Below, piece by piece: positions 28,842-64,000 of a stretch of DNA of 64,000 bases. The position numbers and the translations under genes are program-made. The stretch is from Candidatus Micrarchaeota archaeon (lineage in GTDB: Archaea > Micrarchaeota > Micrarchaeia > Burarchaeales > JBFMAP01), in NCBI GenBank assembly GCA_964632135.1, contig CAZWEI010000001.1, positions 29,883 to 93,882 on the forward strand. Direction: 5' to 3'. Under the pieces are notes generated by a model. That model ran no database searches, had not been told where the DNA came from, and was given only the letters and a program-made list of their open reading frames with translations. Numbering within the stretch: position 1 is the first letter of the stretch; every line of letters starts with the position of its first letter.

Positions 28842-28856
28842 CGCGCTGCACCCCGT

Positions 28857-29582: not shown

Positions 29583-29601
29583 TAATAAATGTGCAGCGCC
29601 G

Positions 29602-29627: not shown

Positions 29628-29628
29628 G

Positions 29629-42224: not shown

Positions 42225-43676
42225 TCACGCTACCTCGCTCTCGTCTGATTTCCTGCGCTTTGCCCCGTAGTCGCTCATTCCCGCGCGCCACCACGAGTCG
42301 TACCTCTCGCTCACCTGCTCCTCTATGCTCCTTCCGCGCTTGAGCGCCGCGCGCACGTGCTTCTCGTCTATCAACTCGCTGCCATCCGTGACCGCGAGGT
42401 CGCCTGCCAACTTTATTATCCCGCTGAGGTCCCGCAGGCGCAGCGTGAGGCCGACGACGTCGTCTATGGATTTTGCGCGCGCCCTCGCCTCGTCAAGAAG
42501 CACGGCAACTGCCTTCGAGTTTGCGTGTGGAATCCTTCCATCTTTCCTTATCTCCTGCGCGATGAACTGCACGAGTTTTTTCCTGTTCTCATCAGTGTCG
42601 GGCATCGTGGTGCCCAGCAGCACCTCGTATCCGTTGCCCAGTATGCGCGAGCGCAGGGGTGGGAGGAGATGATCCATGTCATTCGTGTTGAGCGCGCCTA
42701 TGAGTATGAAGTCGCACGGCACGTTGTCAACGCGTATTGATGCGCCTGTGCTCGATGCGTTGCGCCCGGCAATCGGGAATTTCTTCTCCTGCATGGCTGT
42801 CAGAAGATATCTCTGCAAATATCCAAGCGTCGCTATCTCATCAATAAATAAAACGCCCTCGTGCGCCTCGTGAATCGCGCCCGGCACCACGCGCAAGTAA
42901 GCGGCCATTCCAATCTCCGGATGACCGCCGTATGGATCGTGCTTCACATCGCCGACAAGTTCGGTCTCGCTCGCGCCCGTCGCCTGAATGAACGTGTTTC
43001 GCTGAAGAGGAAGAATTATTTTGCGCGGGCGCTTTGATTCTATTTCTTCAATTTTCCGCAAAGATGACTGGTCATAGATGCGAATCTTTCCCTCCTCGTC
43101 GCGCTCGTAAAGAACGACCTCCTCGCGCCCGTCCGGGAATGCGCGCGTCGTGTGAACGCGGTCCTCCCTCACCTCGCCCATGAACCCGAAAATCAAATCG
43201 TCAAATGGGGACAACTCGCGGCGGTATTTATCCGCCCCGCACTTTGGGCAGACCGGCGTGTTGAAGTTGCTGAGGTTCCCGCACCTTTTGCACCTGAACC
43301 CGAGCCTCTCGGCGACGAACGACGGAACCTCGGAAGCGGAAAGCATCTTGCCCTCGAATTCCTTCGGCTTCCTATCCTTCACTATTTTCTCGCGGTCGCG
43401 CACCTCAATCACTGGCCGCTCTGGGTTTTCCGGATTGTGGAGAACGGAGACCTCCTGCGTCGGCTGCGGGAGTATGAATGCAATCGCCTGCGCGAGCATG
43501 CTCTTCCCTGTGCCCGGAGGGCCGACGAGAAGGAGATGACGGCGCTGCCTCGCGACCACGCGCGCTATCTTAACTACCTCGTCCTGCCCGATTATCATTT
43601 CTAGAGGATTTTTAGGCAGAATGATTTCCCGCGTGCTCTCGAAATCGAGGAAGCCGGCGCGCGCGTCTGGTTCCAT
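42225..43676 (-). CDS. LonB-type AAA+ ATPase without the protease domain; a zinc ribbon replaces the LonB membrane anchor
   Basis: QDEVVKIARVVARQRRHLLLVGPPGTGKSMLAQAIAFILP closely matches the archaeal LonB N-terminus. A CKRCGN...CPKCG insert sits between Walker A and B. Sensor-2-like RLRDLSGIIKLAGDLA...KHV is present. The protein ends there, with no Ser-Lys protease domain. Confidence 0.65.
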   Translation of the reverse strand: MEPDARAGFLDFESTREIILPKNPLEMIIGQDEVVKIARVVARQRRHLLLVGPPGTGKSMLAQAIAFILPQPTQEVSVLHNPENPERPVIEVRDREKIVKDRKPKEFEGKMLSASEVPSFVAERLGFRCKRCGNLSNFNTPVCPKCGADKYRRELSPFDDLIFGFMGEVREDRVHTTRAFPDGREEVVLYERDEEGKIRIYDQSSLRKIEEIESKRPRKIILPLQRNTFIQATGASETELVGDVKHDPYGGHPEIGMAAYLRVVPGAIHEAHEGVLFIDEIATLGYLQRYLLTAMQEKKFPIAGRNASSTGASIRVDNVPCDFILIGALNTNDMDHLLPPLRSRILGNGYEVLLGTTMPDTDENRKKLVQFIAQEIRKDGRIPHANSKAVAVLLDEARARAKSIDDVVGLTLRLRDLSGIIKLAGDLAVTDGSELIDEKHVRAALKRGRSIEEQVSERYDSWWRAGMSDYGAKRRKSDESEVA

Positions 43677-46143: not shown

Positions 46144-46187
46144 ACGGTTTACAACCCCGAGTGTTTATCTTTTTATTTGTTTATAAA

Positions 46188-51863: not shown

Positions 51864-52601
51864 TCATTTGTTATTGAAACTCAGCAACTCCATGCTCCCG
51901 CCGCCGCCCTCGGCGGTGGAAACTATTTTTACTGGCACTGGGACTCCGTCGGCAATCCAGACTGTGCTCGCCTCCTCTGGAAGCGAATACACGCTCGTGT
52001 TGAAAACGCCGGCGGGAACGCGCACCTCCTCGTGCCTGAGCAGTTTCGCGCCCGCGAGGTTTTCCTTGCACATCACGCCGGGTATGCCGGATACGTCGGC
52101 GCAATCAGCCTCTGTGGTGAAAGGCTGGCCCCCTGCGAAGCTCATCGAGATTTCAAGCTTTTTGCACTTGAGCGTGTTTTTCTCGAGCCACATCAGACTA
52201 TTCATGCTCGCGCTCTGCCCCTGAACCGAAGCGTTCGTTGAAATCTCGACCTTGTACGTGTCGGTCCCGTCCACGAGTTCGGTTCCTATATAATTGTACG
52301 ATGTGCGCGCCTCCTGCGTGCCTCCATATTGGCTGTCCGCCGAAACCTTGTAGGCATACGAGAACTCGGGGGTCATGTTGAACAGCGGGGTGCAGTTCAT
52401 GGGCTCGGCGCGCGGCTTTTGAGTTCCGTTCTCCGAGAGGTTTCCCACGGAGAAAACTGAAAAATTCTCACCTGCACTCGGCATCGGAGGCGGCGTATAC
52501 GAGAGCGATGAGATGAGAACCAGTATCACCCCCAGAATTATTATCGCGAGAACCGTCATCTGCGCAACAACGCTCATGTTTCTCTGAACCAGTTTTTTCA
52601 C
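51864..52601 (-). CDS. N-terminally anchored hypothetical protein (operon member)
   Basis: MKKLVQRNMSVVAQMTVLAIIILGVILVLI anchor, then an extracellular domain with sequons and a C-terminal GGGGS. Confidence 0.4.
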   Translation of the reverse strand: MKKLVQRNMSVVAQMTVLAIIILGVILVLISSLSYTPPPMPSAGENFSVFSVGNLSENGTQKPRAEPMNCTPLFNMTPEFSYAYKVSADSQYGGTQEARTSYNYIGTELVDGTDTYKVEISTNASVQGQSASMNSLMWLEKNTLKCKKLEISMSFAGGQPFTTEADCADVSGIPGVMCKENLAGAKLLRHEEVRVPAGVFNTSVYSLPEEASTVWIADGVPVPVKIVSTAEGGGGSMELLSFNNK

Positions 52602-52615: not shown

Positions 52616-53641
52616 TTACAATATTTTAAATAAACTCCTGCCCATCTCGGAAACGTCCGCGCCAAGGACAGGCGCGATCGCGCGCACGAACGCGAACGTG
52701 ACCACGAGCACGACAATGGGGTAGAAGAACGCGTAGACTATCATGCTCACCGTCTGGCCCCCGAGGCCGGACGAGCCCATCGCCGCCTCTGCCTGCGCGA
52801 CCTTTATCAGCGTCGCGAACGCGGCTGGGTCGTTCGCGCATATGTTCGTGCTCATCGTTATCTGCGGGGCCTGGCATCCGGATGGCGGGGAGCCGGAACT
52901 CATCAGAATCACTACGAACATGAGCGGATATACGATGTAAAGGCCGATGGCGAGCGCGATCATGAGCGCGCCTGCGCCGCGCGTGTACGGGAATATTCGA
53001 AGTATGATTCCTATCGGCAGATAAACCGTGAACATCGCGGTCTCAACCCACTGGAGGAGGTTGTACTGGAAGTAGAGCGCGAGCGCGAGCCACGTGAGGC
53101 TGTTCGCCTTGTAGTGCGCCTCCACGATCATGCTGTACAGCGGATACGAGAACCATTTGAAAGGAATCGGAATCCGGAGTATGAACGGCGAGACGATGAT
53201 GTCGCTCGCGAGAAGCCGCTCTATCCCCGGCTTGTACGTCTCCTTGTATTTCGACTCGACGCACTTGAGCATCGCGCGCAAATATACATAACTCGCGTCG
53301 AACGGGCTCACCTTCGCGAGCCCCGCCATGCCCGGCACGACTATGCTGCCTGCGAAAATCTCCGTCTGATTTTGGATGAGGCCGACGCCGTAGGATTCGC
53401 CTGAAACTATTGTGAAAAGAAGGACCACGAGAATAATTGAAGCAAGCACCTGCGCTAGTTCGCTCTTCACCCATCTCCTGAGGTCCGGAAGCTCGAAAAA
53501 TTTCGAGAGCATGTACGCGAGCGCGACTATGAAAATCTGTATCATTATCGCGAGGAGCGCGATCGCAATCCAGCTCGCGTCGCCCAGGACGGTTTTTCCA
53601 AGGTCAGCCGCAGTCGTGTTCCACATAACATCATCTTTCAA
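52616..53641 (-). CDS. polytopic membrane protein, paralog family (NE[LIF]YQ / LPIG-LR-FP-TR / C-terminal LGxDVxI motifs), member 1
   Basis: VKSELAQV; YLPIGIILRIFPYTRGAGALMIALAIGLYIVYPL; C-terminal PVLGADVSEMGRSLFKIL. Confidence 0.55.
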   Translation of the reverse strand: MKDDVMWNTTAADLGKTVLGDASWIAIALLAIMIQIFIVALAYMLSKFFELPDLRRWVKSELAQVLASIILVVLLFTIVSGESYGVGLIQNQTEIFAGSIVVPGMAGLAKVSPFDASYVYLRAMLKCVESKYKETYKPGIERLLASDIIVSPFILRIPIPFKWFSYPLYSMIVEAHYKANSLTWLALALYFQYNLLQWVETAMFTVYLPIGIILRIFPYTRGAGALMIALAIGLYIVYPLMFVVILMSSGSPPSGCQAPQITMSTNICANDPAAFATLIKVAQAEAAMGSSGLGGQTVSMIVYAFFYPIVVLVVTFAFVRAIAPVLGADVSEMGRSLFKIL

Positions 53642-53665
53642 TCATATCCGATCATTGTCTTTATA

Positions 53666-54652
53666 TCACACCATCCTCGTCAGCGTCGTGATGTCGACCT
53701 CCTCGCCAAGCGCGCGGGAGAGGTCGCGCACGACCGCTATTATTATTATACTATTTATGGCAGGAAGCAGGAACGCCGCGAAAATCACCGTCGCGATTTG
53801 CGATATCGCCCTGCTCAGGAAGAAATCGGCGATCAGCGATTCGATCGTGAAAACGGCGACCATTATGTTTCCTGTGACCGCGGAGACCGCGATTGATGGA
53901 ATGCTTGACTTCAGCGCCTCAAGGACGTCCCTCCAGACGGACACGCTCTCTACGCTCGTGGGCTGCCCGAGCACGACGAAATTCAGCATGAGCATGAACG
54001 GATACGCGACGAACAGGCCGATCGCGATTGCCATGAGCGCGCCGCCGAACTTCCGCGTGATTGGGAACGAGCGGCACACCACGCCGATTGGAAGGAGGAT
54101 GCTGAGCATCCCCACGTTTATTATTTTCAGCACGACAATCTGCGCGATGGTCACGAGAAGGCATATCGCCACCGCATTCACGAGGAAATTCAGTATGGTC
54201 ATTAGCGCGCTGAGCCCTGCGAAAGGCGACATTATCACCGTGACGAATGTGATTGGGAGTCCGCCGGTAAACGAGGAGAGCATCATAACTATGTTCGACA
54301 TCCCGAGAACTCCTCCGAGAACGACCGCGGTCTTGTCCCTGAGCCAGAGCAGAAAGAACTCCGCGACGTCAAACATGTTCCCGCCAACGTTCAGCCCGAA
54401 ATCGGAGAAGTTGAGCGAGCACAGCGTCGTGACGAGGAGTATGATGGACGCGAGGAAGAGCGCGGTTATGAAAACCTGGTAGAGTTCATTCTTTGCGCGC
54501 GCAACAAGCCAGGGGTTTCCCATGTACGTGCCTATCATGTAGAGCAGGGAGATTACGAAATAGGACGTGAGGATGCCTATCAAACTCAGCCCCTGCCAGC
54601 TGCCAAGCCAGTCACTGGGCGACACGCACGCGTTCGGCATTGCCATTTTCAC
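53666..54652 (-). CDS. polytopic membrane protein, same paralog family, member 2
   Basis: AKNELYQV; LLPIGVVCRSFPITRKFGGALMAIAIGLFVAYPF; C-terminal RALGEEVDITTLTRMV. Confidence 0.55.
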   Translation of the reverse strand: MKMAMPNACVSPSDWLGSWQGLSLIGILTSYFVISLLYMIGTYMGNPWLVARAKNELYQVFITALFLASIILLVTTLCSLNFSDFGLNVGGNMFDVAEFFLLWLRDKTAVVLGGVLGMSNIVMMLSSFTGGLPITFVTVIMSPFAGLSALMTILNFLVNAVAICLLVTIAQIVVLKIINVGMLSILLPIGVVCRSFPITRKFGGALMAIAIGLFVAYPFMLMLNFVVLGQPTSVESVSVWRDVLEALKSSIPSIAVSAVTGNIMVAVFTIESLIADFFLSRAISQIATVIFAAFLLPAINSIIIIAVVRDLSRALGEEVDITTLTRMV

Positions 54653-54694
54653 ACCATTCCAATCAATTCAATCAAATTCAATCGAAATCAATCA

Positions 54695-55780
54695 TCAGAT
54701 TATTTTCACGAGCGAGGTGAAATCGATCTCCGCGCCCAGGAGGGACGCGAGGGACCTCGTGAACATTATCGTGGCGATGAGGCACATAAGCGGCAGCAGC
54801 ACCGCAGCGACGACGGACATGTAGAGCATCGGCCCGAAATCCCCCTCGTAAGTCATTTCCTTCACGAACTCCGAGGGCGCGCTCCCTCCCCTGTTGAACA
54901 TGTCGTCGATTATGTCGCGCGCGTTCCCCGCCATCGCGAGCGTGAGGCTGCCACTGCATTTGTAGGTGTTGCAGTGGTCGCGGACTATCTGCTCGGACGC
55001 GAGATACGTGAGCGGAAGAACGATGTAGAAACCAATCGAAATCGCGATGAACGCGCCGCCTGCCATCCTCGTGAACGGGAACGCGCGCAGCGCAATCCCC
55101 ACAGGAAGGAAGAACGCGAACATGTAATCGCGCGCGAACTCGAGGAGCATCTCCTGCGCGCGCAACTGTATTATCGAAAGCGAGAGGATGGAGAGCGCGT
55201 AACCGAACATGTCCATGACGGGCCTGAACGCCGCGCCGGGCACAATATCAAACGTGAGCGCCTGCTTTATGTCGAACATCAGCGTCATCGAGGCGATTGC
55301 ACCCGCGAGTATGTCGAAGTGAATCATCGTCTTCACGTAGCCTGTTATCTGCTCCCGGAGGGCGCGCGCATATGCGACGGCGTGGTTCTGGAGCGCGTTC
55401 CAGTCGCCCGCGCACGAGAACGAGGAGTATGTGTAAGTGCCGGTGCCATTCAAGAAATTTGTGCTGCAGAACGCGGGGAACAGCATGGTGTTCAGGTACC
55501 AGTCCGCGGAGATGAGCATCCCGAGCATGAACGCCGTCGCCGCTAGTTGGTAGAACTCGTTGCGCGCGAACGAGATGAGGTTGTTCGAATTCACTCCGGT
55601 GCCCACCGCGTATATGAGCGCCATCACCGTGAGCATGGTGAGCAGGACTATGAGCGTCACTGTCTGCCATCTCTGGCACCAGACGGACGTGCAGTCCGCA
55701 CGAACAAGCGTTGAGAGCAGCACTAACGCGACGAAGGCGAGCAGAATTTTTCTTGCGTTCTTCATTGCCGGTTTTTTCAT
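54695..55780 (-). CDS. polytopic membrane protein, same paralog family, member 3 (Cys-containing N-terminal extension)
   Basis: ARNEFYQL; FLPVGIALRAFPFTRMAGGAFIAISIGFYIVLPL; C-terminal SLLGAEIDFTSLVKII. Confidence 0.55.
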   Translation of the reverse strand: MKKPAMKNARKILLAFVALVLLSTLVRADCTSVWCQRWQTVTLIVLLTMLTVMALIYAVGTGVNSNNLISFARNEFYQLAATAFMLGMLISADWYLNTMLFPAFCSTNFLNGTGTYTYSSFSCAGDWNALQNHAVAYARALREQITGYVKTMIHFDILAGAIASMTLMFDIKQALTFDIVPGAAFRPVMDMFGYALSILSLSIIQLRAQEMLLEFARDYMFAFFLPVGIALRAFPFTRMAGGAFIAISIGFYIVLPLTYLASEQIVRDHCNTYKCSGSLTLAMAGNARDIIDDMFNRGGSAPSEFVKEMTYEGDFGPMLYMSVVAAVLLPLMCLIATIMFTRSLASLLGAEIDFTSLVKII

Positions 55781-55788
55781 TTCTACAC

Positions 55789-57135
55789 CTACAGCAATCT
55801 CGTGAGCCCTGCTATCTCGACATCCCCGCCGAGCGCAGGCGAGAGCGCCTTTATGAACGCGAGCGTTATGAAAATGTTCAGAAGCGGGAGCGCGACAGCA
55901 GGTATCATCAGCATCGCCGTCGTGTCGAGAACGCCAATTGAGGACATTCCTGTGATTGGATCAATTGCGGGCATCCCTGTTACGGGATCGTACTGCGTGA
56001 AAAGCACCTTTGCAAAATCGCTCGACGACGGGGTTAGGTCGTGCGTGAAAAGGATGAGGTCCTTTGGCTGCGGGGTTCCGTGCGGAATAAGGTCTGTGTT
56101 GAGTTTTGGAAGAACAGGGATGACATCGACAGTGTACCAGCCGAGAACGTACAGCAGCGGGAAAATGGAGTAGAGACCGAGCGCTATCGCGAGCATCAGC
56201 CCGCCGAGTTTGCGCGTGAACCACAGCGTCCTCAGAATCAAGCCAGCCACGAGAAATATCGGGAAAACGCCGTTTTGTATGTAGAGCAGAACCTGCTCCT
56301 GGAACTTCACGCTCAGCATCGCCTTTGCCATGAAGTCCGCGGCTGTCCCGAGTTGCTCGTATAGTACGCCATAGCCCGCGAACGGCGCGATGTCGAACTT
56401 CAGCGAGAAAGGCAGGCCGAGTATGTTTATGTAAAACCCGAAATGCATCGTCTCGACGAACACGAGCTCCGCGTACATCTTCACGGTCGCGCGCGCCTGC
56501 TGTGCTATCTGCTCGTACGTGCGGCCGAGGAATGCGCGCGCGAGGTAGAAGTGGCAGGGATATGTGCAGGTTATCGTGCCGCCCTGGACCGCCTCCCATC
56601 TCCCTGCGCCCTTTCCCGCGCCCGCGCCGGTCTCGCGATAGCGATAGGTGTATGCCGTCGCATTTGGTATTATCACCCACGTCCCTGTTGCATTGGACGC
56701 GCTCCAGCCCGTCTGGCTCCCGAGTATTTTCGCGCCGAACTCCTGCGAAACCGATTCGAGAAGCGGGACGAACACGACGAACGCGCCGAAAAGTATCGCG
56801 GACACGAACGCCTGGTAAATCTCGTTCTTGATGAGCGTTTCCAAATCCCGCAACTGGAACGCGCGCGCGACCATCCACGCGGATATGAGCGCGAAGACCG
56901 CGATGATTATCACGAGCCCGCCGGCGGACTGCCACGTCCCGCCCCATCTCTGCCAAAGGCTCATCGGCGTGGGCCTGCACACGCACCCGCCGGTTGTTGG
57001 TATGCATTCGCCGGAGCAACAGGTGCAGGGCGCGATGGTGCATAACTCGCCTGTTCTCGTGCATCCAGGAGTCGTGCATCCGAACATCAGCAACAGGAGG
57101 ATTGCAAGCGAGACAATCGCCAGCGTTACTCTCAT
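55789..57135 (-). CDS. polytopic membrane protein, same paralog family, member 4 (lipobox-like signal plus Cys-rich N-terminal ectodomain)
   Basis: LLLMFGCTTPGCTRTGELCTIAPCTCCSGEC...; IKNEIYQA; FLVAGLILRTLWFTRKLGGLMLAIALGLYSIFPL; C-terminal PALGGDVEIAGLTRLL. Confidence 0.55.
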   Translation of the reverse strand: MRVTLAIVSLAILLLLMFGCTTPGCTRTGELCTIAPCTCCSGECIPTTGGCVCRPTPMSLWQRWGGTWQSAGGLVIIIAVFALISAWMVARAFQLRDLETLIKNEIYQAFVSAILFGAFVVFVPLLESVSQEFGAKILGSQTGWSASNATGTWVIIPNATAYTYRYRETGAGAGKGAGRWEAVQGGTITCTYPCHFYLARAFLGRTYEQIAQQARATVKMYAELVFVETMHFGFYINILGLPFSLKFDIAPFAGYGVLYEQLGTAADFMAKAMLSVKFQEQVLLYIQNGVFPIFLVAGLILRTLWFTRKLGGLMLAIALGLYSIFPLLYVLGWYTVDVIPVLPKLNTDLIPHGTPQPKDLILFTHDLTPSSSDFAKVLFTQYDPVTGMPAIDPITGMSSIGVLDTTAMLMIPAVALPLLNIFITLAFIKALSPALGGDVEIAGLTRLL

Positions 57136-57141
57136 TCAAGC

Positions 57142-58050
57142 TCACTCCATCAGTTGATAATCATACGTGAATACTGTCACGAGCACACGAATAAACGTGA
57201 TTGTGATTATGAGGTTGAGCGCGGGAAGAAAGACGGCCTGCGGGAGCATCATCCCGATCGTCTGGAACGTGTTGCACACTGTCCCGTGCCCCATCTCCGA
57301 GAAGACGTCGGAGAGCCCGCTCCTCCCGGAACTGCACCACTCCGTGAAACTCCTGTCCAGGCTCACCTCCTCCATCACCTTCATATCGAAAACGTACGTG
57401 AGCGGGAAGACGATGAAAAACCCTATTGCTATCGCCATAAGGTACGCGCCTGCCTCGCGCATGAACGGGACTGTCCTCAAAATGAAGCCTATCGGCAATA
57501 GGAATATGAAGAACGTGTCCTTCACGAACGAGAGGAAAAGTTTCTGGAAAAGAAGGCTCGCCGAAATGGGCGTTACGAGAAACGCGAGGGTCTCGAAAAG
57601 GTAACTCGCCGTGCCGTAGCCTGCGAGTGGAGAGAAGCAGAACAGACCCGTGCAGCTCGGAATCGCAATGCTGAACGCGGCCTTTCTCTGCGCGCTCAGG
57701 CTCATGTCAAACAGGGACTGGACAGCAGGCACCATCTTGCCCCATATCAACCCGTGGAGGTATTTGTCAGAGACCTTGAAGGGGTCTGCGCCTGCCACTC
57801 CCTGTGAAATATCGCATGAGAGCAACGCGAACGAGATGACGCCGCCTATAAGTATGCACGCGACTATCGTCTGGTAGAGTTCGCCCTTCGCCCAGAACTC
57901 CCAATCGGTGCGGCGCGTGAACTGGGAAATCATGTACACGAGCGCGACCAGGAAGAACGAGATGAGAAGGGCTAGCGCCATGAACGGAACCCAGTTCCAA
58001 TAGTCCGACTGGAATGTGCAGTAGTACGTTAGCGCAGCCATTTGGGACAC
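57142..58050 (-). CDS. polytopic membrane protein, same paralog family, member 5 (lacks the shared C-terminal motif)
   Basis: AKGELYQT; LLPIGFILRTVPFMREAGAYLMAIAIGFFIVFPL; ends ...VFTYDYQLME, six nt before the next gene. Confidence 0.5.
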   Translation of the reverse strand: MSQMAALTYYCTFQSDYWNWVPFMALALLISFFLVALVYMISQFTRRTDWEFWAKGELYQTIVACILIGGVISFALLSCDISQGVAGADPFKVSDKYLHGLIWGKMVPAVQSLFDMSLSAQRKAAFSIAIPSCTGLFCFSPLAGYGTASYLFETLAFLVTPISASLLFQKLFLSFVKDTFFIFLLPIGFILRTVPFMREAGAYLMAIAIGFFIVFPLTYVFDMKVMEEVSLDRSFTEWCSSGRSGLSDVFSEMGHGTVCNTFQTIGMMLPQAVFLPALNLIITITFIRVLVTVFTYDYQLME

Positions 58051-58071
58051 CTGTGCACACAGCTCATAATT

Positions 58072-59826
58072 TCATATGAACTCCGCAAGACCGGTTATTC
58101 TCGCCTCTCCTCCGAGAGCTGTTGAGAGCGAGCGCATCGCCGTTACAACTATTATCAAATCAAGTATTGGGAAGACGAACGCTGCGATGATGGGCTGCAT
58201 CATCCAGGGCACGGCGTCGGCGTAATAATCAAAACCGCTTCCAGCCACTTCGCCAACTCCCGGATAGAAAACGCTCGCGATCATGACAAGAACGAAAGCG
58301 ATGATTTGGATGAACGCCCACACCATGCTCCATATCCACATTATTATTGCAAAAAAGAAACACCAGGGGAACTTCCACCACTTGTCGCAGTAGTGCGAGA
58401 ACCTCGGGCCCTGGAACGCGTCGGTTATGCTCCCCATGTCGAGCATTTTCAGCGGGAGAGCGCCCCAGTATTCTTCCCGCGGTATCGGGGTAACCGAGCT
58501 GTATATCTCGTTGTTCATGACAAGGGTGAGCGGATAAACTACGTACGCGCCTATTGCGACCGCCATCAGCGTCGCGCCCAATTTCCTCGTGAGCGTGAAC
58601 GAGCGCAGGACGACGCCTATTGGCAGGAATATTTTGAACATCGTCTCTGAGATGAATTGGAGTAGGACGAACTGTCCTATCATCGAGAAGAGCGCGAGCG
58701 AAATGAGGTTCGCGCCCGTGTTTATTATATTGGAAATTATCGAAAGTCCGTAGAATGGCGAGAACGAAAAGGAGAACCCCAGGAAAATTGGGAACAGGCC
58801 TATCACCGGGGGCGGTACTGCCCCGGCGCCCCCTTCTGAAGGAGGCTTGGGGCACTGCTTCCCGATGCACGTGCCAAAGCCCGCGCCTCCTCCGAGATAC
58901 TGAATCAGACCTATCCCGAACTCCGCCTTCACTGTTTTTCCAAATGCGGCGAGGAGGTCGCCTGACACGCGGTTCGTGTAGCCCTGCGCTATGCTCATGT
59001 AGTCCTCGCCGCTGACAGTCCCAAAGTCTTGGATGACGGTGTTGGACAAAAAGACGAGGAATATTATGCTGCCCACGAACCACACGGAAACGGAAACCTC
59101 CACGAATTCCCTTCTCGCGTAAGCGTGGAGTTCAGGGGAATGGAGGAATGAGGCGACCATTATCAGCAGCGCGACTAGCATGTAGCCGATTATTAGCGCG
59201 ACGAGCGTTATCGGAACCCATGTGTTCCACGCGTCAACCGTGAGCGTGCTGCCGAGAATCGAGGACGAGAAATTCGTGCACGCGTTGTTAAAGCAGTACT
59301 GGCCGCCTGAGCATGGGCAGTCCTCGCAGCAGAAGGAGGTGTTTTCAAAATATGGCGAGCCGGAATCGCAGGTCCCGTTGTAGTTGCAGCATGGGGTGAC
59401 GAGGCGCGTGGCGCACGCTCCCCAGTGGCAGTATTTTTCTCTGCAGATTTCAGTCGCAGGGCCTATGCAGCCCGGCGCAGGCGCGCCGTTGATTCCGACA
59501 TACTCGCATTTGGAGGTCACCGCTTCCAAAGGGGCGTACACCACGTCGTCACTCGCGTTGTATAGAACGCACGTTTTGTAGCCGCATATAAAGAGCTCGT
59601 AGCACTGGCATTGGGTATCATTGTATATGCAAAAAGGCGTGTCGTCCCTGACGCACTTATACGTATCCGGATCGCAGCGCTCGAGCGTGCACGGCTCCTT
59701 GTCGTGGTCGCATTGGGTTAGGTTTGCTGAGAACGGGTCGCAGGACTCCCCGAGCGCGTGAGCGGGCTTGGCGAACAAAAACAATATCACAAATAGTAAC
59801 ACGATTGTCTTTGGCAAGGAGTTCAT
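58072..59826 (-). CDS. polytopic membrane protein, same paralog family, member 6 (signal peptide plus ~200-aa Cys-rich N-terminal ectodomain)
   Basis: More than 30 Cys in the first 200 aa; ARREFVEV; FLPIGVVLRSFTLTRKLGATLMAVAIGAYVVYPL; C-terminal TALGGEARITGLAEFI. Confidence 0.55.
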   Translation of the reverse strand: MNSLPKTIVLLFVILFLFAKPAHALGESCDPFSANLTQCDHDKEPCTLERCDPDTYKCVRDDTPFCIYNDTQCQCYELFICGYKTCVLYNASDDVVYAPLEAVTSKCEYVGINGAPAPGCIGPATEICREKYCHWGACATRLVTPCCNYNGTCDSGSPYFENTSFCCEDCPCSGGQYCFNNACTNFSSSILGSTLTVDAWNTWVPITLVALIIGYMLVALLIMVASFLHSPELHAYARREFVEVSVSVWFVGSIIFLVFLSNTVIQDFGTVSGEDYMSIAQGYTNRVSGDLLAAFGKTVKAEFGIGLIQYLGGGAGFGTCIGKQCPKPPSEGGAGAVPPPVIGLFPIFLGFSFSFSPFYGLSIISNIINTGANLISLALFSMIGQFVLLQFISETMFKIFLPIGVVLRSFTLTRKLGATLMAVAIGAYVVYPLTLVMNNEIYSSVTPIPREEYWGALPLKMLDMGSITDAFQGPRFSHYCDKWWKFPWCFFFAIIMWIWSMVWAFIQIIAFVLVMIASVFYPGVGEVAGSGFDYYADAVPWMMQPIIAAFVFPILDLIIVVTAMRSLSTALGGEARITGLAEFI

Positions 59827-59946
59827 TATTCGCGCACCAATAGTATTTCGTAGAAGGGTTTTAATCCTTTGCTGAGTTGTACTCCGCGCAACGTCTCGCG
59901 CACGCGCTTAGGATAAATATATAAACTTCGGAGAGGATACACAATC

Positions 59947-62900
59947 ATGCGGGCGTTAGCGTTCGTTTTTGCCTGTTCGCTGTTTCTGTTTCTGTTAGCG
60001 AACCCTGCGCTCGGGCAGACGTGCGCTGTTGGGAAACTGCCCACCTACATAGAAGTTACAACCGTTTCAAACGAGAACGTTGGCACGCTGGAGGCAAAGG
60101 CGACCCTTTATTACGTTGATGATTTCAGGAAGACGACCGGCGTGCTTCCTTACCAGGACGTCTATTTTCAAAAATGCCCGTCAGGCTGCCCGCCGGGCAG
60201 CAAAATATGCGACCTGGGCTGCTGCGACAACGCAGGCGGACGTTACTGCGGCCCCTCCACACTGAGGTTCTGCCTTCCTTCGGAATGGATGTGCGACAGG
60301 GGCTGTTGTTTTGCAGATGCAAGCACAATAAAGGGCAGGACCGACAGCAACGGGGAGGCGTTCGCGGTTTTTCCAAAGGACAACATATCCGTGGTCGCGA
60401 TGTACAAGGGGGGCGACAGGTATTTCCCGAGCAACAGCAGCGGCACGTACGGCTCGAGCCCGCTCGGGAACATCACGCTGGGCGCGTGCTTCCCGCTGTT
60501 CCTCCTTCTCGGCCTCCTTCTCGTGGCGATGGGCGCCGCGGGATACAACCCCCTCGGTATGTTTGATTTCTCCGCGGTCCGCGTCCCGCGCGCGCGAATC
60601 CGTCCGCTCATCAGCTTCCAGATGAGCTCGCGCGCGATAACCGCATCACTGGCTCTGGGCGCGAAAAGGAACTTGGAAAAGGCGAGTGTCGACCTGCAGA
60701 TGCTGAAGGACTTGAAGGCCAAGCTCGGCAATGAAACCGACCCAGGCAAGAAAAAGGAATTGCAGAATAAAATCGATGGCCTAGAGAGCAAATACGGTAA
60801 ACAGGACGCAAAAAAAATCGCAGACTCTGAAAAAAAACTCAAGGACGTCGCGCGCGAGTTGCAGGAGGAGAAGAAAAAGGGGAAGAACGCCGACCCGGGA
60901 AAAATCGCAAGTTTGAAAAAAGAGTTGGACGATGAAAAGCGCAGTTTGCATCTGGAAAAAGGCAAGACTGGGCGCAGCGTTGAGGAAACCATCGAACATC
61001 TGAAGAAACAGGTTAGGTTCTTTGAGAACCTTACGAGTCCGCAGCCAGTTAAAATGGGCAAAGTAGTGGACGTTATAACCGGCGCGCCTGTCGCAGGAAT
61101 GGCTATAAGAGCGATAGGAAAAGCGCTCAAAGGGAAGAAACACGAAGAGAAAAAAACTGAAGAAGGCGGAGAAACTCAAGAGAAGATGGTCCAACGGGTC
61201 AAGACAGTCAAGGATGTAACAGTGCTCGGGAAAGCCTCTGGCACAGTTTGGAAGGGAGCGAAATTCGTCGCTAAGATGACCCTCTGGTCGTTCAAGGCCC
61301 CTTTTGCAGGGATAAAGAAATTCGGCGAGTGGTGGGACGAGTTTGCAAAGAGCAAGGCAGGCCGGGGCATCTTTAGTTTCTTGGGAATCGTAACTTTCGG
61401 CATGGCTGGAAGGAAGGATTACGGCACGAACATAAGCATTGGTCCTGTCACGTTCTACGCAGGGAGCCCAGGATACATAGAAACGGTGTATGGCTGGATG
61501 GATGCGCGGGCATTACTGATGCAGCAAAACAAGAAGGTCGTGAAACAGATAGGCGATGCTCTTGAGATTGACGGGGACGTGGTTTGGGTGACGATTGCAA
61601 GCGGGTATTTTAGCATTGGCGGCGCCGGGGCAAGAAGAGATGACGTTCTGAGAGAGGAACACAGGATTCACAAGGACAAAGATGGCAATGTCGTGGAAAA
61701 ACTGGTTTCCAGCAAGGCGACGGAAGGCAGCGGCGAGAACGTGAAGGACGTGGTGCTTTACAAGGACATGCGCAAGGACAAGGACAATAATGTTTATGTG
61801 AATGGCGTTTACGTTAGGGAGGCCGACGGCACGATTTCTGAGGTGGAGTTGAATGAGAAGGGAGAGCCGATACTCGATAGCGAGGGGAAATTCAAGAGGG
61901 TCGGCAAGCCGCTGGTGATTTATGAAACCGGAAAGAAGCACGGGCTGGTTCTGCTCGAGCCGACTGGCGTGATAGAAGCCTATCAGGGGAAGGAAGGCAA
62001 CACGTCATTTGCGCGCGCGCTTATACGCAAAGTCGTTGGAGTGCTGGGTTTCGCGGACGCAGTGGCCGGCGCATTTGTCCCGTTGCGGTACGGGATGATG
62101 AGCCGCAGAATCTATGATACATCAACAGGAACGGCGGAGATAGGAGTTGCAGAGCCAGAGGACAAAATTGTTTTCATGGCGCTGGATGCAATTGAGAGGA
62201 GCAGAACTGCTGCCGAGAGATACAAGGAAGATGTGATGGATCTCGCCAAGCATAGCAGCATGCAAGACGAGATAAGAAGGATACTTGATGACAAAACGCT
62301 CGCGCCGAATGAAAAATTTGAAGCGCTCAGCACGCTGCTGAAACGGGCCTATGAAAAGAAAGCGCCTCCTGAGGACAGAGGAAAAACCATACTGAGAAAA
62401 ATATTTACTGGCGAAGGCAGCAAGCAGGAGGATGAGGAGGAGGACGTTAAAATACTCACAAAGATACTGACGCGATACAGGTGGATGATGGAAGCCGAAT
62501 CCAGCGCGAGTATGGGCCAGGACCACCTTGAGATGATAAACGCGATGAGCGTGAGGCGCGCGAGGCTTCAGAAGGGCGATAGGGAGATAGATGAAGCAAA
62601 GGAAAAGCTTGCTGACGCGAGCAAGTCATTTGGGTTATCCGTGCCGGAAGCGTGGGAAGTCCTCTACGACAACCTAGGCGAGCACAGAAAAAAAATAACC
62701 GAGAAAAGCGAGGCGCTGAAGAAGGACGCGACTGCGAAGGAGAGCAAGAAACTCGACGAAAAGACAAAAGAAATAATGCAGAAATTAGATGAGTATGTGA
62801 ACACTGTTCGCAGGAACTACGCTGACAACGAGTTCCAGGCCGGCGTTGCTCTTGGACTTATCTATGTGACTTCAAAACGCATAGATGAGATCGACAAGAA

Positions 62901-64000
62901 GATCAAAAAAGAAGATGATGAGGACAATAAAAACGCGCTTAGGAATGAGAGGGAGCAATGGGATAACCTGCAGGATTTTGTTTATGAGTTCAAGCCTAGC
63001 GGAGAGCGGACCGCGAGCATCTCCGCGCTGTTGAAGTCAGTTGTTGAGGGAAAAGACGGCAGGGATAAGCTCACGGCCAAAAGGGATGATCTCACGGCTG
63101 AAGTGGAGAAGTACAAAAAGGAGGTTTACTCGGTCGAGGATGCGTATTACGGTGTGGCTAGGGTGGACGCCATCAGGACTGCAAAAGAAGGGGGGATTGA
63201 AAAAATTGATGAGTTAAGAGAAACATCCGCGAAGACCGGAAATGAAAACGAATCGAAGTTGTTGAGGACGTTGGAGATTGACGGGCTGAGGAAAAAGGCG
63301 GTTGATACTGGAAATCTGAAAGAAAACGAACTGAAGTTATTGACGAAATTGGGGATCGAGGAACTTGACGAACGCAGGAGAGCGGCAAGAGACGCGGGAA
63401 CGCCAAGTGAACTCGTTTTATTGACTGAGTCGGAGATTTCTGATCTTAGGGGGTTAGCTGTGAGTAAGGAAAGATTGGAAGAGGACAAGCTTAAACTTTT
63501 GACTGAGTCGGAAGGGAGGCTGGAAAAGGAGTTGCTAAACCCTCGACTACCGGAGTCCGTGCCTCGTAGGGACGTGGAAGAATACGTTCTTCTTTCCGAG
63601 AATAAGATGGGGGAAGCCTGCAACACGTTTAAAGAAACATTCGGAATTGAACCGACGCCCGAAAACGTAAATGCAATGTACGAAGAACTCGCCAACCAGC
63701 CCAGCATGGAGCAGATTCTTGCAATGCGCGCGTATCCGCAGATTAAGGGGGCCATGGATGAGACGCGTTCTATGCTAACCGAGGGTCTTGACAAAGCGGG
63801 ATATTTCGACGAATTCAAGAAAAACCCGGGGCTACTTTCAGAAAATGACGGCTATAGATATGAGGAGAGTAAAGACAAGTACAAAGAAGAAGAAGCGGAA
63901 AACCAGCACTTCGACGGTATCTTCAACCCGGAGGAGCCTGGCGCGCTGTTCTACAATGCAATCGAGTTGCTTGAGCAGGAGGAGATGGATCCTGAGAAGA
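59947..64000 (+). CDS. giant membrane-anchored coiled-coil protein (more than 1350 aa, 3' end beyond the window): signal peptide, Cys-rich ectodomain, single TM, long repetitive charged coiled-coil region
   Basis: The + frame is open from the ATG at 59947 to the window end (4054 nt). MRALAFVFACSLFLFLLANPALG signal; about 160-aa Cys-rich region; TM LGACFPLFLLLGLLLVAMGAAGY; then K/E-rich heptad-like sequence with internal repeats (ENESKLLRTLEIDGL / ENELKLLTKLGIEEL / ELVLLTESEISDL / KLKLLTESEGRLEKEL). Not in the ORF track because no stop occurs in the window. Confidence 0.55.
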   Translation, partial: MRALAFVFACSLFLFLLANPALGQTCAVGKLPTYIEVTTVSNENVGTLEAKATLYYVDDFRKTTGVLPYQDVYFQKCPSGCPPGSKICDLGCCDNAGGRYCGPSTLRFCLPSEWMCDRGCCFADASTIKGRTDSNGEAFAVFPKDNISVVAMYKGGDRYFPSNSSGTYGSSPLGNITLGACFPLFLLLGLLLVAMGAAGYNPLGMFDFSAVRVPRARIRPLISFQMSSRAITASLALGAKRNLEKASVDLQMLKDLKAKLGNETDPGKKKELQNKIDGLESKYGKQDAKKIADSEKKLKDVARELQEEKKKGKNADPGKIASLKKELDDEKRSLHLEKGKTGRSVEETIEHLKKQVRFFENLTSPQPVKMGKVVDVITGAPVAGMAIRAIGKALKGKKHEEKKTEEGGETQEKMVQRVKTVKDVTVLGKASGTVWKGAKFVAKMTLWSFKAPFAGIKKFGEWWDEFAKSKAGRGIFSFLGIVTFGMAGRKDYGTNISIGPVTFYAGSPGYIETVYGWMDARALLMQQNKKVVKQIGDALEIDGDVVWVTIASGYFSIGGAGARRDDVLREEHRIHKDKDGNVVEKLVSSKATEGSGENVKDVVLYKDMRKDKDNNVYVNGVYVREADGTISEVELNEKGEPILDSEGKFKRVGKPLVIYETGKKHGLVLLEPTGVIEAYQGKEGNTSFARALIRKVVGVLGFADAVAGAFVPLRYGMMSRRIYDTSTGTAEIGVAEPEDKIVFMALDAIERSRTAAERYKEDVMDLAKHSSMQDEIRRILDDKTLAPNEKFEALSTLLKRAYEKKAPPEDRGKTILRKIFTGEGSKQEDEEEDVKILTKILTRYRWMMEAESSASMGQDHLEMINAMSVRRARLQKGDREIDEAKEKLADASKSFGLSVPEAWEVLYDNLGEHRKKITEKSEALKKDATAKESKKLDEKTKEIMQKLDEYVNTVRRNYADNEFQAGVALGLIYVTSKRIDEIDKKIKKEDDEDNKNALRNEREQWDNLQDFVYEFKPSGERTASISALLKSVVEGKDGRDKLTAKRDDLTAEVEKYKKEVYSVEDAYYGVARVDAIRTAKEGGIEKIDELRETSAKTGNENESKLLRTLEIDGLRKKAVDTGNLKENELKLLTKLGIEELDERRRAARDAGTPSELVLLTESEISDLRGLAVSKERLEEDKLKLLTESEGRLEKELLNPRLPESVPRRDVEEYVLLSENKMGEACNTFKETFGIEPTPENVNAMYEELANQPSMEQILAMRAYPQIKGAMDETRSMLTEGLDKAGYFDEFKKNPGLLSENDGYRYEESKDKYKEEEAENQHFDGIFNPEEPGALFYNAIELLEQEEMDPEK

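What the first reader, a model, noticed from the sequence alone, without database searches (positions are those of the whole stretch)
59947..64000. Divergently transcribed giant (more than 1350 aa) Cys-rich-ectodomain / single-TM / coiled-coil protein missed by the ORF track
A 4-kb stop-free + frame begins at an ATG with a textbook signal peptide, then a Cys-rich ~160-aa domain, one TM helix, then a K/E-rich heptad-patterned region with internal sequence repeats (63240-63540). Listed minus-strand ORFs (60243-61130, 61513-61941, 62122-62526 and others) are antisense shadows. The gene shares a ~120-bp divergent promoter region with the membrane-paralog operon, and its Cys-rich ectodomain resembles the N-terminal extensions of paralogs 4 and 6. 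It may be a scaffold, ruler, or tether of the same system.
Basis: seen in the sequence. Interest (0 to 1): 0.65.

Follow-up and report, generated by a model that had tools for sequence, protein, structure and literature searches.

The report
Giant membrane-anchored protein of Micrarchaeota
This is a real 1454-residue gene from a tiny symbiotic archaeon (Micrarchaeota) that encodes a small outside domain, one membrane helix and a huge inside tail, and it always sits back-to-back with six related membrane-protein genes, so it is probably part of an undescribed membrane machine that may derive from type IV secretion systems.

Summary
Window 59947-64000 (+) is a stop-free, purifying-selected coding frame, and the minus-strand ORFs are shadows. 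An identical NCBI hypothetical protein (P0001) shows the full length is 1454 aa, so only 103 residues lie beyond the window. The ORF track "missed" it only because the ORF runs off the window end.

Anatomy:
- signal peptide
- Ig-like beta-sandwich ectodomain carrying a lineage-specific 45-aa, 10-Cys insert
- one strongly conserved TM helix plus juxtamembrane motif
- a ~1250-aa Cys-free cytoplasmic tail, basic near the membrane and acidic distally, with patchy heptads and five ~26-aa repeats

About 30 relatives exist among 1.84 billion representatives, and every one that carries a source name is Micrarchaeota. Only the first ~230 residues are conserved. The tails cannot be aligned, but all share the charge gradient.

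In 7 of 8 loci the gene is divergent from the same six 1:1-orthologous membrane paralogs. A single-copy relative of those paralogs lies in an archaeal chromosome in the order pilin-like, X, small TM protein, VirB4/TraC-like ATPase.

Best reading, inferred: a bitopic structural subunit and cytoplasmic tether of a Micrarchaeota-specific membrane complex that may be T4SS-derived. Homology of the paralogs to VirB6 is not shown. The claimed resemblance of the ectodomain to the paralog N-terminal extensions is compositional only.

The parts
59947..64000 (+). 5' 1351 codons of a 1454-codon gene. The product is a bitopic giant membrane protein. The last 103 codons lie beyond the window.
   Evidence: Stop-free frame. 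Identical 1454-aa NCBI protein P0001. Codon bias. dN/dS far below 1.
59947..60015 (+). Signal peptide, residues 1-23 (MRALAFVFACSLFLFLLANPALG|Q).
   Evidence: Hydrophobic N-terminus. An AxA(Q)-type site is conserved in 21 homologues. AF2 helix 2-17. No dedicated predictor was available.
60016..60480 (+). Extracellular Ig-like beta-sandwich ectodomain, residues 24-178. The nearly invariant C26 and the invariant C181 flank it.
   Evidence: AF2 on the 21-sequence alignment gives strands at pLDDT ~90. Foldseek finds only generic Ig/FN3-type sandwiches, best E 6e-3. dN/dS 0.01-0.14.
60175..60309 (+). Lineage-specific Cys-rich insert in a loop of the sandwich, residues 77-121. It has 10 Cys in two C-x6-C-x3-CC units.
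   Evidence: Internal duplication. The insert is variable, or absent in distant members (alignment A3). AF2 pLDDT is below 50 here.
60481..60606 (+). Family hallmark, residues 179-220: the TM helix plus the juxtamembrane motif GACFPLFLLLGLLLVAMGAAGYNPLGMFDFSAVRVPRAR.
   Evidence: Kyte-Doolittle 2.51. The motif is found in 26 family proteins. Invariant residues are C181, P183, G199, P202 and D207. dN/dS 0.03.
60607..61446 (+). Membrane-proximal, K-rich, strongly basic part of the cytoplasmic tail, about residues 221-500. It contains short heptad segments.
   Evidence: Net charge of +9, +7 and +10 per 100 aa. K is 15-18%. Heptad-like segment at 279-316.
61447..62226 (+). Mixed, G-rich and hydrophobic-patch middle region, about residues 501-760. 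It is probably globular and is not a second TM segment.
   Evidence: Composition and weak hydrophobic segments at 373-391 and 691-714, which carry charged residues. Identity to the MAG141 fragment P0012 is 49-64% in the 100-aa blocks covering residues 496-795.
62227..63240 (+). Acidic, K/E-rich helical region with heptad-like segments, about residues 761-1098.
   Evidence: Crude heptad segments at 861-905, 927-968, 988-1016 and 1036-1072. Period-3.5 windows. Net charge per 100 aa runs from +1 to -10 over the distal tail.
63241..63636 (+). Five degenerate ~26-31-aa protein repeats with the motif E-x-[KLVY]-L-L-[TSR], residues 1099-1230.
   Evidence: Motif positions 1104, 1130, 1157, 1183 and 1214 and BLOSUM window pairs. 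There is no DNA tandem repeat.
59827..59946 (.). 120-bp divergent intergenic region with two AT-rich TATA-like boxes: 59913-59925 for the giant gene and ~59858-59866 (minus strand) for the operon.
   Evidence: Sequence. Both boxes are conserved in the MAG141 contigs, and the operon-side box is also conserved in L003. Promoter function is inferred.
52616..59826 (-). Operon of six paralogous polytopic membrane proteins: par6 58072-59826, par5 57142-58050, par4 55789-57135, par3 54695-55780, par2 53666-54652, par1 52616-53641. They share the motif LPIGxxLRxFPxTRxxG.
   Evidence: Alignment A1. Each has a 1:1 orthologue, in the same order, in L008, L011, L013 and L012. No Pfam, NCBIfam, PHROGs or PADLOC hit.
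51864..52601 (-). p245, a bitopic protein (N-terminal TM helix plus ~200-aa extracellular domain with 4 conserved Cys). It is a conserved seventh gene of the operon.
   Evidence: Orthologues in L011 and L013. No PDB or Pfam match.
43723..51854 (-). Two secreted Cys-rich giants downstream on the same strand: p1888 (46188-51854; 73 Cys, 2.5 sequons per 100 aa) and p806 (43723-46143; 16% Cys, tandem Cys repeats).
   Evidence: Translations. Cys and sequon counts. A p1888-like N-terminus follows p245 in L013. Whether they belong to the same system is inferred.

Best explanation
The gene encodes a type-I (N-out, C-in) bitopic membrane protein restricted to Micrarchaeota, a phylum of DPANN archaea.

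Shown:
- It is a real gene under purifying selection.
- Its conserved module is the signal peptide, an Ig-like ectodomain, and a highly constrained TM helix plus juxtamembrane motif.
- Its ~1250-residue cytoplasmic tail evolves fast but keeps a basic-proximal to acidic-distal charge gradient in every family member.
- It is almost always encoded head-to-head with an operon of six anciently duplicated, individually orthologous polytopic membrane proteins plus a small bitopic protein.

Inferred:
- The conserved TM helix and ectodomain dock into a heteromeric membrane complex built from the six paralogs.
- The giant tail projects into the cytoplasm as a flexible scaffold or tether. Its basic part would lie at the anionic membrane or on nucleic acid, and its acidic helical part would reach inward.
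- A single-copy relative of the paralogs occupies the VirB6/PrgH position in an archaeal module ordered pilin-like, X, VirB3-position protein, VirB4/TraC-like ATPase. The complex is therefore most likely a chromosomal, domesticated derivative of a T4SS/Ced-like membrane pore. It would serve cell-surface or host-contact functions of these episymbionts, and the downstream Cys-rich giant secreted proteins are possible surface components.
For: Gene reality.

Full length and family:
- P0001 is 1454 aa.
- Exhaustive phmmer finds 30 hits at E<1e-3 and 8 at E<1e-30. Most full-length hits are about 1050-2150 aa, and the homology is confined to roughly residues 1-300.
- All hits that carry a source name are Ca. 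Micrarchaeota/Micrarchaeia.

Conserved core:
- The motif appears in 26 proteins.
- Invariant residues are C181, P183, G199, P202 and D207.
- dN/dS is 0.03 for TM plus juxtamembrane against 0.25 for the tail.
- In the same MAG141 genome, the N-terminus is 83-90% identical but the tail only 48-75%.

Topology:
- R/K-rich stretch immediately after the TM helix.
- The ectodomain has 7.1 Cys per 100 aa and the tail 0.08. Family-wide the values are 4.57 and 0.15 over 19,288 tail residues.
- Glycosylation sequons are 1.94 per 100 aa outside and 0.40 inside.

Tail charge gradient: present in all 22 long members.

Synteny: divergent from par6 to par1 (plus p245) in the window, L003, L008, L010, L011, L012 and L013. 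Orthologues are 35-55% identical, against ~25% between paralogs.

T4SS link:
- P0011 matches the paralog profile at E 2e-40.
- L004 is archaeal, because it carries an archaeal 23S rRNA.
- Its neighbours are a 132-aa protein with a signal peptide, two TM helices and a weak PF18895 T4SS_pilin hit; a 268-aa protein with an N-terminal TM hairpin; and a DUF87/AAA_10 ATPase whose best plasmid hits are TraC/VirB4 of conjugative plasmids.

Literature parallels: Ced/Ted systems consist of a pilin, a VirB6-like protein and a VirB4-like protein (PMC9905601). Patescibacteria keep a chromosomal T4SS, and that paper cites work listing several of its genes as essential for epibiotic growth of one strain (PMC12102498).
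Against: - No direct evidence shows that the giant protein contacts the paralogs. There are no expression, interaction or multimer-model data.
- VirB6 homology of the paralogs is not demonstrated. The profile finds nothing in PDB at E<=10. The AF2 model (pLDDT 70.7) finds nothing by Foldseek (best E 0.2). There are no Pfam or NCBIfam hits.
- No VirB4-like ATPase was found among the window ORFs scanned; about 17 ORFs in window 1-29,600 were not scanned. None appears in the flanks of L008, L011, L012 or L013.
- One family member (L007) is not next to the paralogs.
- The tail has no recognisable domain in any member, so 'scaffold/tether' rests on composition alone.
Confidence: 0.45

Rival explanations
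1. It is the DNA- or nucleoid-handling arm of a Ced/T4SS-like DNA transfer pore. The 250-300-residue strongly basic, membrane-proximal tail would bind nucleic acid at the cytoplasmic mouth of the channel, in place of a coupling protein.
For: - Basic proximal segments (+7 to +21 net charge per 100 aa) are conserved family-wide.
- The paralog family has a T4SS-like genomic context.
- Some subfamily tails carry short wHTH-like motifs, with a weak HTH_45 hit in P0016.
Against: - No DNA-binding domain, ATPase or relaxase was detected.
- Basic juxtamembrane regions also fit simple binding to the membrane surface.
- No VirB4 or coupling ATPase lies in the locus.
Confidence: 0.15
2. It is an independent membrane-anchored cytoskeletal or organising protein, for example for cell shape, division or membrane-nucleoid spacing. 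In this reading it merely shares a bidirectional promoter region with the paralog operon.
For: - One homologue (P0014, L007) lies away from the paralogs, among other helical proteins.
- The tails resemble generic long helical tethers.
- Nothing in the tail ties it to secretion.
Against: - The head-to-head arrangement is kept in 7 of 8 loci across ~35-56% protein identity. In L011 the arrangement persists although an unrelated UbiA gene separates the two.
- The most constrained part is a TM helix, which is typical of an intramembrane partner interface.
Confidence: 0.15
3. It is a contact-sensing receptor. The Ig-like ectodomain, with its variable Cys-rich insert, would recognise a host-surface ligand and signal across the membrane to the tail.
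For: - The variable, lineage-specific insert sits in an exposed loop of a conserved sandwich.
- Micrarchaeota are host-associated (PMC8975820).
Against: - The tail has no signalling domain such as a kinase, cyclase or HAMP domain.
- The ectodomain core is under very strong constraint (dN/dS 0.01), not diversifying selection.
Confidence: 0.1
4. The topology is reversed or the tail is extracellular, making this a giant fibrous surface adhesin or an S-layer stalk.
For: - DPANN archaea are known to make giant surface proteins, for example the nanohaloarchaeal SPEARE proteins (PMC10266531).
- K/E-rich helical stalks occur in surface proteins.
Against: - A cleavable-type signal peptide followed by one TM helix with an R/K cluster on its C-terminal side.
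- The tail has 1 Cys in 1254 residues and few sequons, whereas every predicted extracellular segment in this locus has 3.9-16 Cys per 100 aa.
- The Micrarchaeota S-layer protein belongs to a different family that carries PF05123 (bioRxiv 10.1101/2021.04.28.441871).
Confidence: 0.03
5. It is not a gene: either a chance open frame or a frame whose real genes lie on the minus strand.
For: Minus-strand ORFs of 83-295 aa overlap the region.
Against: - P(no stop) is ~1e-31.
- Codon statistics.
- dN/dS of 0.01-0.25 in the + frame.
- 30 homologous proteins.
- The antisense ORFs have no family hits.
Confidence: 0.01

Closest known systems
Nanohaloarchaeal 'SPEARE' giant proteins (Ca. Nanohaloarchaeum antarcticus; SVXNc_0300; PMC10266531)
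   Same: Both are DPANN-specific giant bitopic membrane proteins. Both have Ig-like domain(s) outside, a single TM helix and a large cytosolic part that includes coiled coil. Both have been proposed to belong to a T4SS-like host-interaction apparatus.
   Different: In SPEARE the giant part is extracellular (about 75 Ig-like repeats) and the cytosolic part is a VirB4/TraG-like ATPase. Here the ectodomain is a single ~155-aa sandwich and the giant part is a cytoplasmic, domain-less charged tail. It has no Walker A motif and no AAA_10/DUF87 hit. No sequence similarity was detected.
VirB6 / PrgH / CedA / TedA polytopic pore subunits of T4SS and archaeal Ced/Ted systems (PMC9905601). This comparison concerns the partner operon, not the giant protein.
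   Same: The six paralogs are polytopic helical membrane proteins. Their single-copy relative P0011 sits between a VirB2-like pilin candidate and a VirB3-position protein plus a VirB4/TraC-like ATPase, as in the prgH-prgI-prgJ order.
   Different: No sequence or fold match to VirB6 was obtained. Six distinct, anciently diverged paralogs in tandem, with no adjacent ATPase, is not a described Ced/Ted/T4SS layout. To my knowledge no known T4SS has a giant bitopic partner of this type.
Tandem VirB6 expansion in the Rickettsiales rvh T4SS (RvhB6a-e). This is recalled from my own knowledge and was not checked here.
   Same: An obligate host-dependent lineage keeps several tandem, individually conserved copies of the VirB6-position membrane subunit, some with large hydrophilic extensions.
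   Different: That system is bacterial and its VirB4, VirB8-11 and VirD4 components are present and recognisable. In Rickettsiales the extensions are fused to the VirB6 proteins. Here the giant hydrophilic mass is a separate bitopic protein.
KASH-domain nesprins of the eukaryotic LINC complex. This is a functional analogy only, from my own knowledge.
   Same: Both are giant, fast-evolving helical cytoplasmic proteins anchored by one TM helix. In both, a short conserved trans-membrane and extracytoplasmic module is the part that engages partners.
   Different: There is no homology. The orientation is opposite, because the KASH anchor is C-terminal. The domain of life and the cellular context differ.
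Predicted archaeal 'secretion system' around arCOG01314/arCOG02884 (PMC5898192)
   Same: It also combines membrane proteins that have extracellular Ig-like domains with an AAA+ ATPase.
   Different: That system is defined by DUF4350, MoxR, vWA and pfam07760 proteins. None of these is detected in this locus.

Membership tests
SPEARE-type DPANN giant proteins | Cytosolic VirB4/TraG-like ATPase domain after the TM helix | tested here: not met
   No Pfam AAA_10, DUF87 or TraG hit. No NCBIfam hit. No G-x4-GK[ST] motif.
SPEARE-type DPANN giant proteins | Very long extracellular array of Ig-like repeats | tested here: not met
   The ectodomain is a single ~155-aa sandwich.
VirB6/CedA/TedA (for the six partner paralogs) | Detectable sequence or profile similarity to VirB6/TrbL/PrgH/CedA | tested here: not met
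   No Pfam or NCBIfam hits. The paralog profile finds nothing in PDB at E<=10, although I recall T4SS structures containing VirB6 being deposited.
VirB6/CedA/TedA (for the six partner paralogs) | VirB6-like fold | tested here: inconclusive
VirB6/CedA/TedA (for the six partner paralogs) | Genomic association with a VirB4-family ATPase and a VirB2-like pilin | tested here: inconclusive
   Met for the single-copy relative P0011 in L004-L006. Not met in the window or in L008, L011, L012 or L013. About 17 window ORFs and the rest of the genome were not examined.
   Only six heptad-like segments of about 29-45 aa by a crude scorer, plus scattered period-3.5 windows, interrupted by G/P-containing and hydrophobic regions. 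MARCOIL and COILS were not available.
Micrarchaeota S-layer protein (SLP_Mh family) | PF05123 S-layer N-terminal domain; very few sulphur-containing residues; extracellular bulk | tested here: not met
   Neither the giant protein nor p1888 has a PF05123 hit. The bulk of the giant protein is predicted to be cytoplasmic.
New family defined here (Micrarchaeota giant bitopic protein) | Signal peptide, then a sandwich with C-P-x-x-K-x-P-T near the mature N-terminus, then the TM/juxtamembrane motif C-x-P-[LFI]-x(5-7)-[LF]-x(4-9)-G-x-[NDS]-P-x(3-5)-[DL]-[FLIV]-[ST], then a long Cys-free tail that runs from basic to acidic | tested here: met

The most novel reading that the evidence does not exclude
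The giant protein, the six ancient VirB6-position paralogs, p245 and the Cys-rich secreted giants together form a previously undescribed, Micrarchaeota-wide envelope machine derived from a conjugation or Ced-like pore. It would be the apparatus through which these episymbionts contact hosts and exchange material with them. In this reading the giant tail is a new kind of cytoplasmic tether that replaces the usual ATPase platform.
Probability: 0.15. Interest if true: 0.85.

Novelty: new variant of a known kind. Interest (0 to 1): 0.6.

Why it matters
How DPANN archaea attach to hosts and draw resources from them is a long-standing open question, and few molecular candidates exist. This locus is a phylum-restricted, strongly syntenic set of at least eight genes with no family annotation. 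Its core membrane subunits have a traceable, though unproven, link to T4SS/Ced-type pores. That parallels the chromosomal T4SS that Patescibacteria retain. The giant bitopic protein offers a concrete experimental handle, with a conserved 230-residue module suited to antibodies, cryo-ET labelling and multimer modelling. The family also shows how a protein can conserve a charge architecture over more than 1000 residues while losing all alignable sequence.

Tried and rejected
- Exact-protein contig look-ups for the window's own proteins failed, so the 3' flank of the gene could not be read as DNA. The end is known only from P0001.
- Word-index homology searches were nearly blind for this family, returning 1, 3 and 1 hits. 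Only the exhaustive phmmer search found it.
- The tails were compared in three ways, all negative: phmmer of the target tail against the family, a subfamily tail HMM against the others, and BLAST of neighbouring helical proteins (L011 700 aa, L007 1106/209/183/431 aa, L004 719/1032 aa) against the family.
- Pfam, NCBIfam, PHROGs and PADLOC on the target and its neighbours gave nothing beyond chance-level hits (Zein-binding at E 0.014; Copper-bind and plastocyanin, weak).
- PDB sequence searches with the target, the ectodomain profile, the paralog profile and the p245 profile found nothing significant.
- The metagenome scan with par1 orthologues returned one 2.9-kb contig. Viral-contig scans found none, or the alignment was too degenerate to search with. 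P0011 has no plasmid hit.
- Considered and rejected:
  - the arCOG01314 predicted secretion system, which has different components;
  - the Micrarchaeota S-layer protein, which is a different family;
  - a second TM helix at residues 373-391 or 691-714, because both are charged, are not hydrophobic in P0012 and the intervening region lacks Cys;
  - a lipobox at C181, because the Cys precedes rather than follows the hydrophobic segment.
- No Rfam RNA and no tRNA was found in the window.

Full report

Translating window 59947-64000 on the + strand gives 1351 codons without a stop. With the local base composition a stop is expected every ~19 codons. The probability of 1351 stop-free codons is about 1e-31, and 500 shuffles never exceeded 273 codons.

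ATG 59947 is the first possible start. An in-frame TAA lies 11 codons upstream and no ATG, GTG or TTG intervenes.

Codon usage scored against other genes of the window is positive only in this frame: +0.24 bits per codon, against -0.17 to -0.84 in the other five, which carry 24-83 stops.

Against the orthologue in a Ca. Micrarchaeota MAG (L001, 82% identity), dN/dS varies by region:
- 0.01-0.14 in the ectodomain
- 0.03 in the TM and juxtamembrane segment
- 0.25 in the first 130 residues of the tail

The frame is therefore a gene, and the antisense ORFs are shadows.

A 100%-identical NCBI protein of 1454 aa (P0001, from a 138-kb contig) shows that only 103 residues are missing. The ORF list omitted the gene simply because ORFs that run off the window are not listed. 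It is already annotated publicly as a hypothetical protein.

**2. Anatomy**

- **Signal peptide.** Residues 1-23 form an n-h-c signal peptide ending ...ANPALG|Q. An AxA(Q) site precedes a nearly invariant Cys in 21 aligned homologues.
- **Ectodomain.** Residues 24-178 fold in AF2 (21-sequence alignment, mean pLDDT 71.8, strands ~90) as a beta-sandwich. Foldseek returns only generic Ig/FN3-type sandwiches, best E 6e-3.
- **Cys-rich insert.** The Cys-rich portion is a 45-residue insert (residues 77-121) with 10 Cys and a duplicated C-x6-C-x3-CC unit. It sits in one loop, has pLDDT below 50, and is variable in length or absent in distant relatives.
- **TM helix and hallmark motif.** Residues ~179-200 are the only convincing TM helix (Kyte-Doolittle 2.51). 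Together with the following NPLGMFDFSAVRVPRAR it forms the family hallmark, with invariant C181, P183, G199, P202 and D207.
- **Topology.** The R/K cluster after the helix argues for N-out, C-in. So does the striking asymmetry in cysteine: 7.1 Cys per 100 aa outside against 0.08 in the 1254-residue tail, and family-wide 4.57 against 0.15. Glycosylation sequons are 1.94 against 0.40 per 100 aa.
- **Tail.** It is a mosaic:
  - a K-rich basic stretch (about residues 221-500; net +7 to +10 per 100 aa)
  - a mixed G-rich and hydrophobic-patch region (about 500-760)
  - an acidic K/E-rich helical region with six heptad-like segments of about 29-45 aa
  - five degenerate ~26-31-aa repeats at residues 1099-1230, visible only at the protein level
  
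  'Coiled-coil protein' is thus only partly right.
- **Paralog extensions.** BLASTP finds no similarity between the ectodomain and the N-terminal extensions of paralogs 4 and 6, or any other protein of the locus (all E>1). They share only Cys-richness.

**3. Relatives**

Word-indexed searches saw almost nothing. An exhaustive phmmer of residues 1-1200 against 1.84 billion representatives found 30 proteins at E<1e-3, 8 of them at E<1e-30. Most full-length hits are about 1050-2150 aa, and the matches are confined to roughly residues 1-300. Every member that carries a source name is Ca. Micrarchaeota or Micrarchaeia.

The tails are not alignable between subfamilies, and none contains a known domain. 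Even within the closest genome pair the N-terminus is 83-90% identical while tail blocks are 48-75% identical.

Nevertheless all 22 long members share one architecture. The first 200-300 tail residues are strongly basic (+7 to +21 per 100 aa) and the distal part is acidic (-2 to -11 per 100 aa). Selection therefore acts on two things: a docking module made of the sandwich, TM helix and juxtamembrane motif, and the bulk physical properties of a very long tail.

**4. Context**

The 120-bp spacer (59827-59946) separates the gene from a minus-strand operon. It contains two AT-rich TATA-like boxes that are conserved in MAG141, and the operon-side box is also conserved in L003.

The operon encodes six paralogous polytopic membrane proteins. 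They are 24-30% identical to one another and share the motif LPIGxxLRxFPxTRxxG. Downstream on the same strand lie four more genes:
- a 245-aa bitopic protein (p245)
- a 1888-aa secreted, Cys- and sequon-rich protein (p1888)
- an 806-aa protein with 16% Cys (p806)
- a LonB-related AAA+ ATPase that lacks a protease domain

None of the membrane or secreted proteins hits Pfam, NCBIfam, PHROGs or PADLOC.

In other Micrarchaeota contigs the giant gene is again head-to-head with the operon. This holds for L003, L008, L010, L011, L012 and L013. The six genes there are 1:1 orthologues of par6 to par1, in the same order. Orthologues are 35-55% identical, against ~25% between paralogs. They are followed by p245, and in L013 by a p1888-like gene.

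The hexaplication therefore predates the divergence of these lineages, and the association with the giant gene is conserved in 7 of 8 loci. L007 is the exception.

**5. What kind of system?**

The paralog profile also matches a single-copy 380-aa protein, P0011 (E 2e-40). It lies on a 500-kb contig that carries an archaeal 23S rRNA. Its gene order there is:
- a 132-aa protein with a signal peptide, two hydrophobic helices and a weak PF18895 T4SS_pilin hit
- P0011
- a 268-aa protein with an N-terminal TM hairpin
- a 518-aa DUF87/AAA_10 ATPase

The ATPase's best plasmid matches are TraC/VirB4 proteins, 177 of 288 of them on conjugative plasmids.

That is the VirB2, VirB6, VirB3, VirB4 (prgH-prgI-prgJ-like) layout, and it matches the minimal archaeal Ced/Ted systems (PMC9905601). 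By position, the paralog family is therefore the polytopic pore subunit of an archaeal T4SS-like module.

**6. Most likely mechanism**

Shown: the giant protein is a conserved, Micrarchaeota-restricted, N-out/C-in bitopic protein that is genetically coupled to the six-paralog operon.

Inferred: its constrained TM helix and small sandwich integrate into a heteromeric membrane complex of the paralogs (and p245). The tail would form a long cytoplasmic scaffold or tether, with its basic part at the membrane or on nucleic acid. The complex would be a domesticated derivative of a T4SS/Ced-like pore used at the cell surface of these episymbionts. I put this at 0.45.

The rivals are:
- a DNA-handling arm of a DNA-transfer pore (0.15)
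- an independent membrane-anchored organiser that only shares a promoter region (0.15)
- a contact receptor (0.10)
- an extracellular fibrous adhesin (0.03)
- not a gene (0.01)

**7. Comparison with known systems**

The nearest described proteins in concept are the nanohaloarchaeal SPEARE giants. These have Ig-like repeats outside, one TM helix, and a cytosolic VirB4/TraG ATPase plus coiled coil, and have been proposed as T4SS-related host-interaction proteins (PMC10266531). The present protein fails both defining features: it has no ATPase and no long Ig array.

Patescibacteria, the bacterial counterparts of DPANN, retain a chromosomal T4SS, and that paper cites work listing several of its genes as essential for epibiotic growth of one strain (PMC12102498). 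Tandem VirB6 expansion in Rickettsiales is a further parallel, recalled from my own knowledge. The arCOG01314 'secretion system' (PMC5898192) and the Micrarchaeota S-layer protein (bioRxiv 10.1101/2021.04.28.441871) are different entities.

My literature searches found no description of this family or of the six-paralog locus.

**8. Verdict**

This is a real, publicly annotated but uncharacterised gene. The locus is a coherent, phylum-specific, undescribed membrane system with an inferred T4SS ancestry, so I rate it a new variant of a known kind. Interest is 0.6. It offers a concrete molecular candidate for DPANN envelope and host-contact biology, but all functional statements are in silico inference.

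Noticed in passing
window 43723-46143 (-): An 806-aa membrane-anchored or secreted protein with 129 Cys (16%). It contains about six tandem ~55-aa units of the form CPxxxxCxPSAYPxTCPSSGCCPxGTVWNxTQNCCTxxxGxC, followed by further Cys-knot-like modules. It has no family hit.
   Followed up: partly
window 46188-51854 (-): A 1888-aa secreted protein with 73 Cys clustered at both ends, 2.5 N-x-S/T sequons per 100 aa, and repeated 'V-x-W-x-N-x-D-x3-H-x-L' motifs that give weak plastocyanin/cupredoxin hits. It is probably an array of cupredoxin-like sandwiches. A p1888-like N-terminus follows p245 in L013.
   Followed up: partly
window 42225-43676 (-): The last gene on the same strand is a 483-aa AAA+ ATPase. 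It matches archaeal LonB (363 bits, below the 516.6-bit cutoff) over the ATPase and LID regions only, with no protease domain, and shows a weak Zn-ribbon-like match within the N-terminal part. Whether it belongs to the system is unknown.
   Followed up: partly
all family tails (P0001, P0014-P0042): The cytoplasmic tails cannot be aligned between subfamilies, yet all 22 long members show the same gradient from a strongly basic first 200-300 residues to an acidic distal part.
   Followed up: yes
L004 9583-13518 (also L005, L006): An archaeal chromosome, with its 23S rRNA at L004 2454-5442, carries a compact T4SS-like module. The order is a pilin-like 132-aa protein, the paralog relative P0011, a 268-aa TM-hairpin protein and a VirB4/TraC-like ATPase. 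These are followed by 719-aa and 1032-aa membrane proteins; the 1032-aa protein gives weak tape-measure hits.
   Followed up: partly
L002 ~7450-7920 and L001 1-110 (MAG141): In MAG141 the spacer between the paralog operon and the giant gene holds two copies of a ~110-bp element made of near-perfect palindromes (GCGCAATTTGTTCGG...CCGAACAAATGCGC; GCGCATTTTTGCC...GGCAAAAATTGCGC). The assembly breaks there. The element is absent from the window (0 matches with up to 3 mismatches).
   Followed up: partly
L011 8218-9855; L013 6784-9950 and 13824-14480: There are locus variants. In L011 a UbiA-family prenyltransferase gene is inserted between the giant gene and par6. In L013 par6 appears split or truncated, with an unrelated 446-aa ORF next to the giant gene, and a second p245 paralog lies convergent downstream of the giant gene.
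   Followed up: no
P0015-P0019, P0023 tails: One subfamily carries repeated short motifs of the form 'L..(K/E)GL(I/V)....G.W.LT..G', which resemble the recognition helix and wing of wHTH domains (weak HTH_45 hit in P0016, E 9e-5). The five LL[TS]-repeats of the window protein may be a degenerate counterpart.
   Followed up: no
window ~20000-30000: GC drops to 0.44-0.48 in four of the five 2-kb windows between 20 and 30 kb, against ~0.50-0.57 elsewhere in the window. The region contains a DDE_Tnp_1 transposase (23080-24372) and an AlbA_2/HATPase_c_4 (Schlafen-like) protein (26894-28345). It is probably a horizontally acquired island.
   Followed up: no
window 60022-60024 and 60487-60489 (C26, C181): Two cysteines flank the ectodomain: C26, nearly invariant, at the mature N-terminus, and C181, invariant, at the outer end of the TM helix. 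They may form a membrane-proximal disulfide staple.
   Followed up: no
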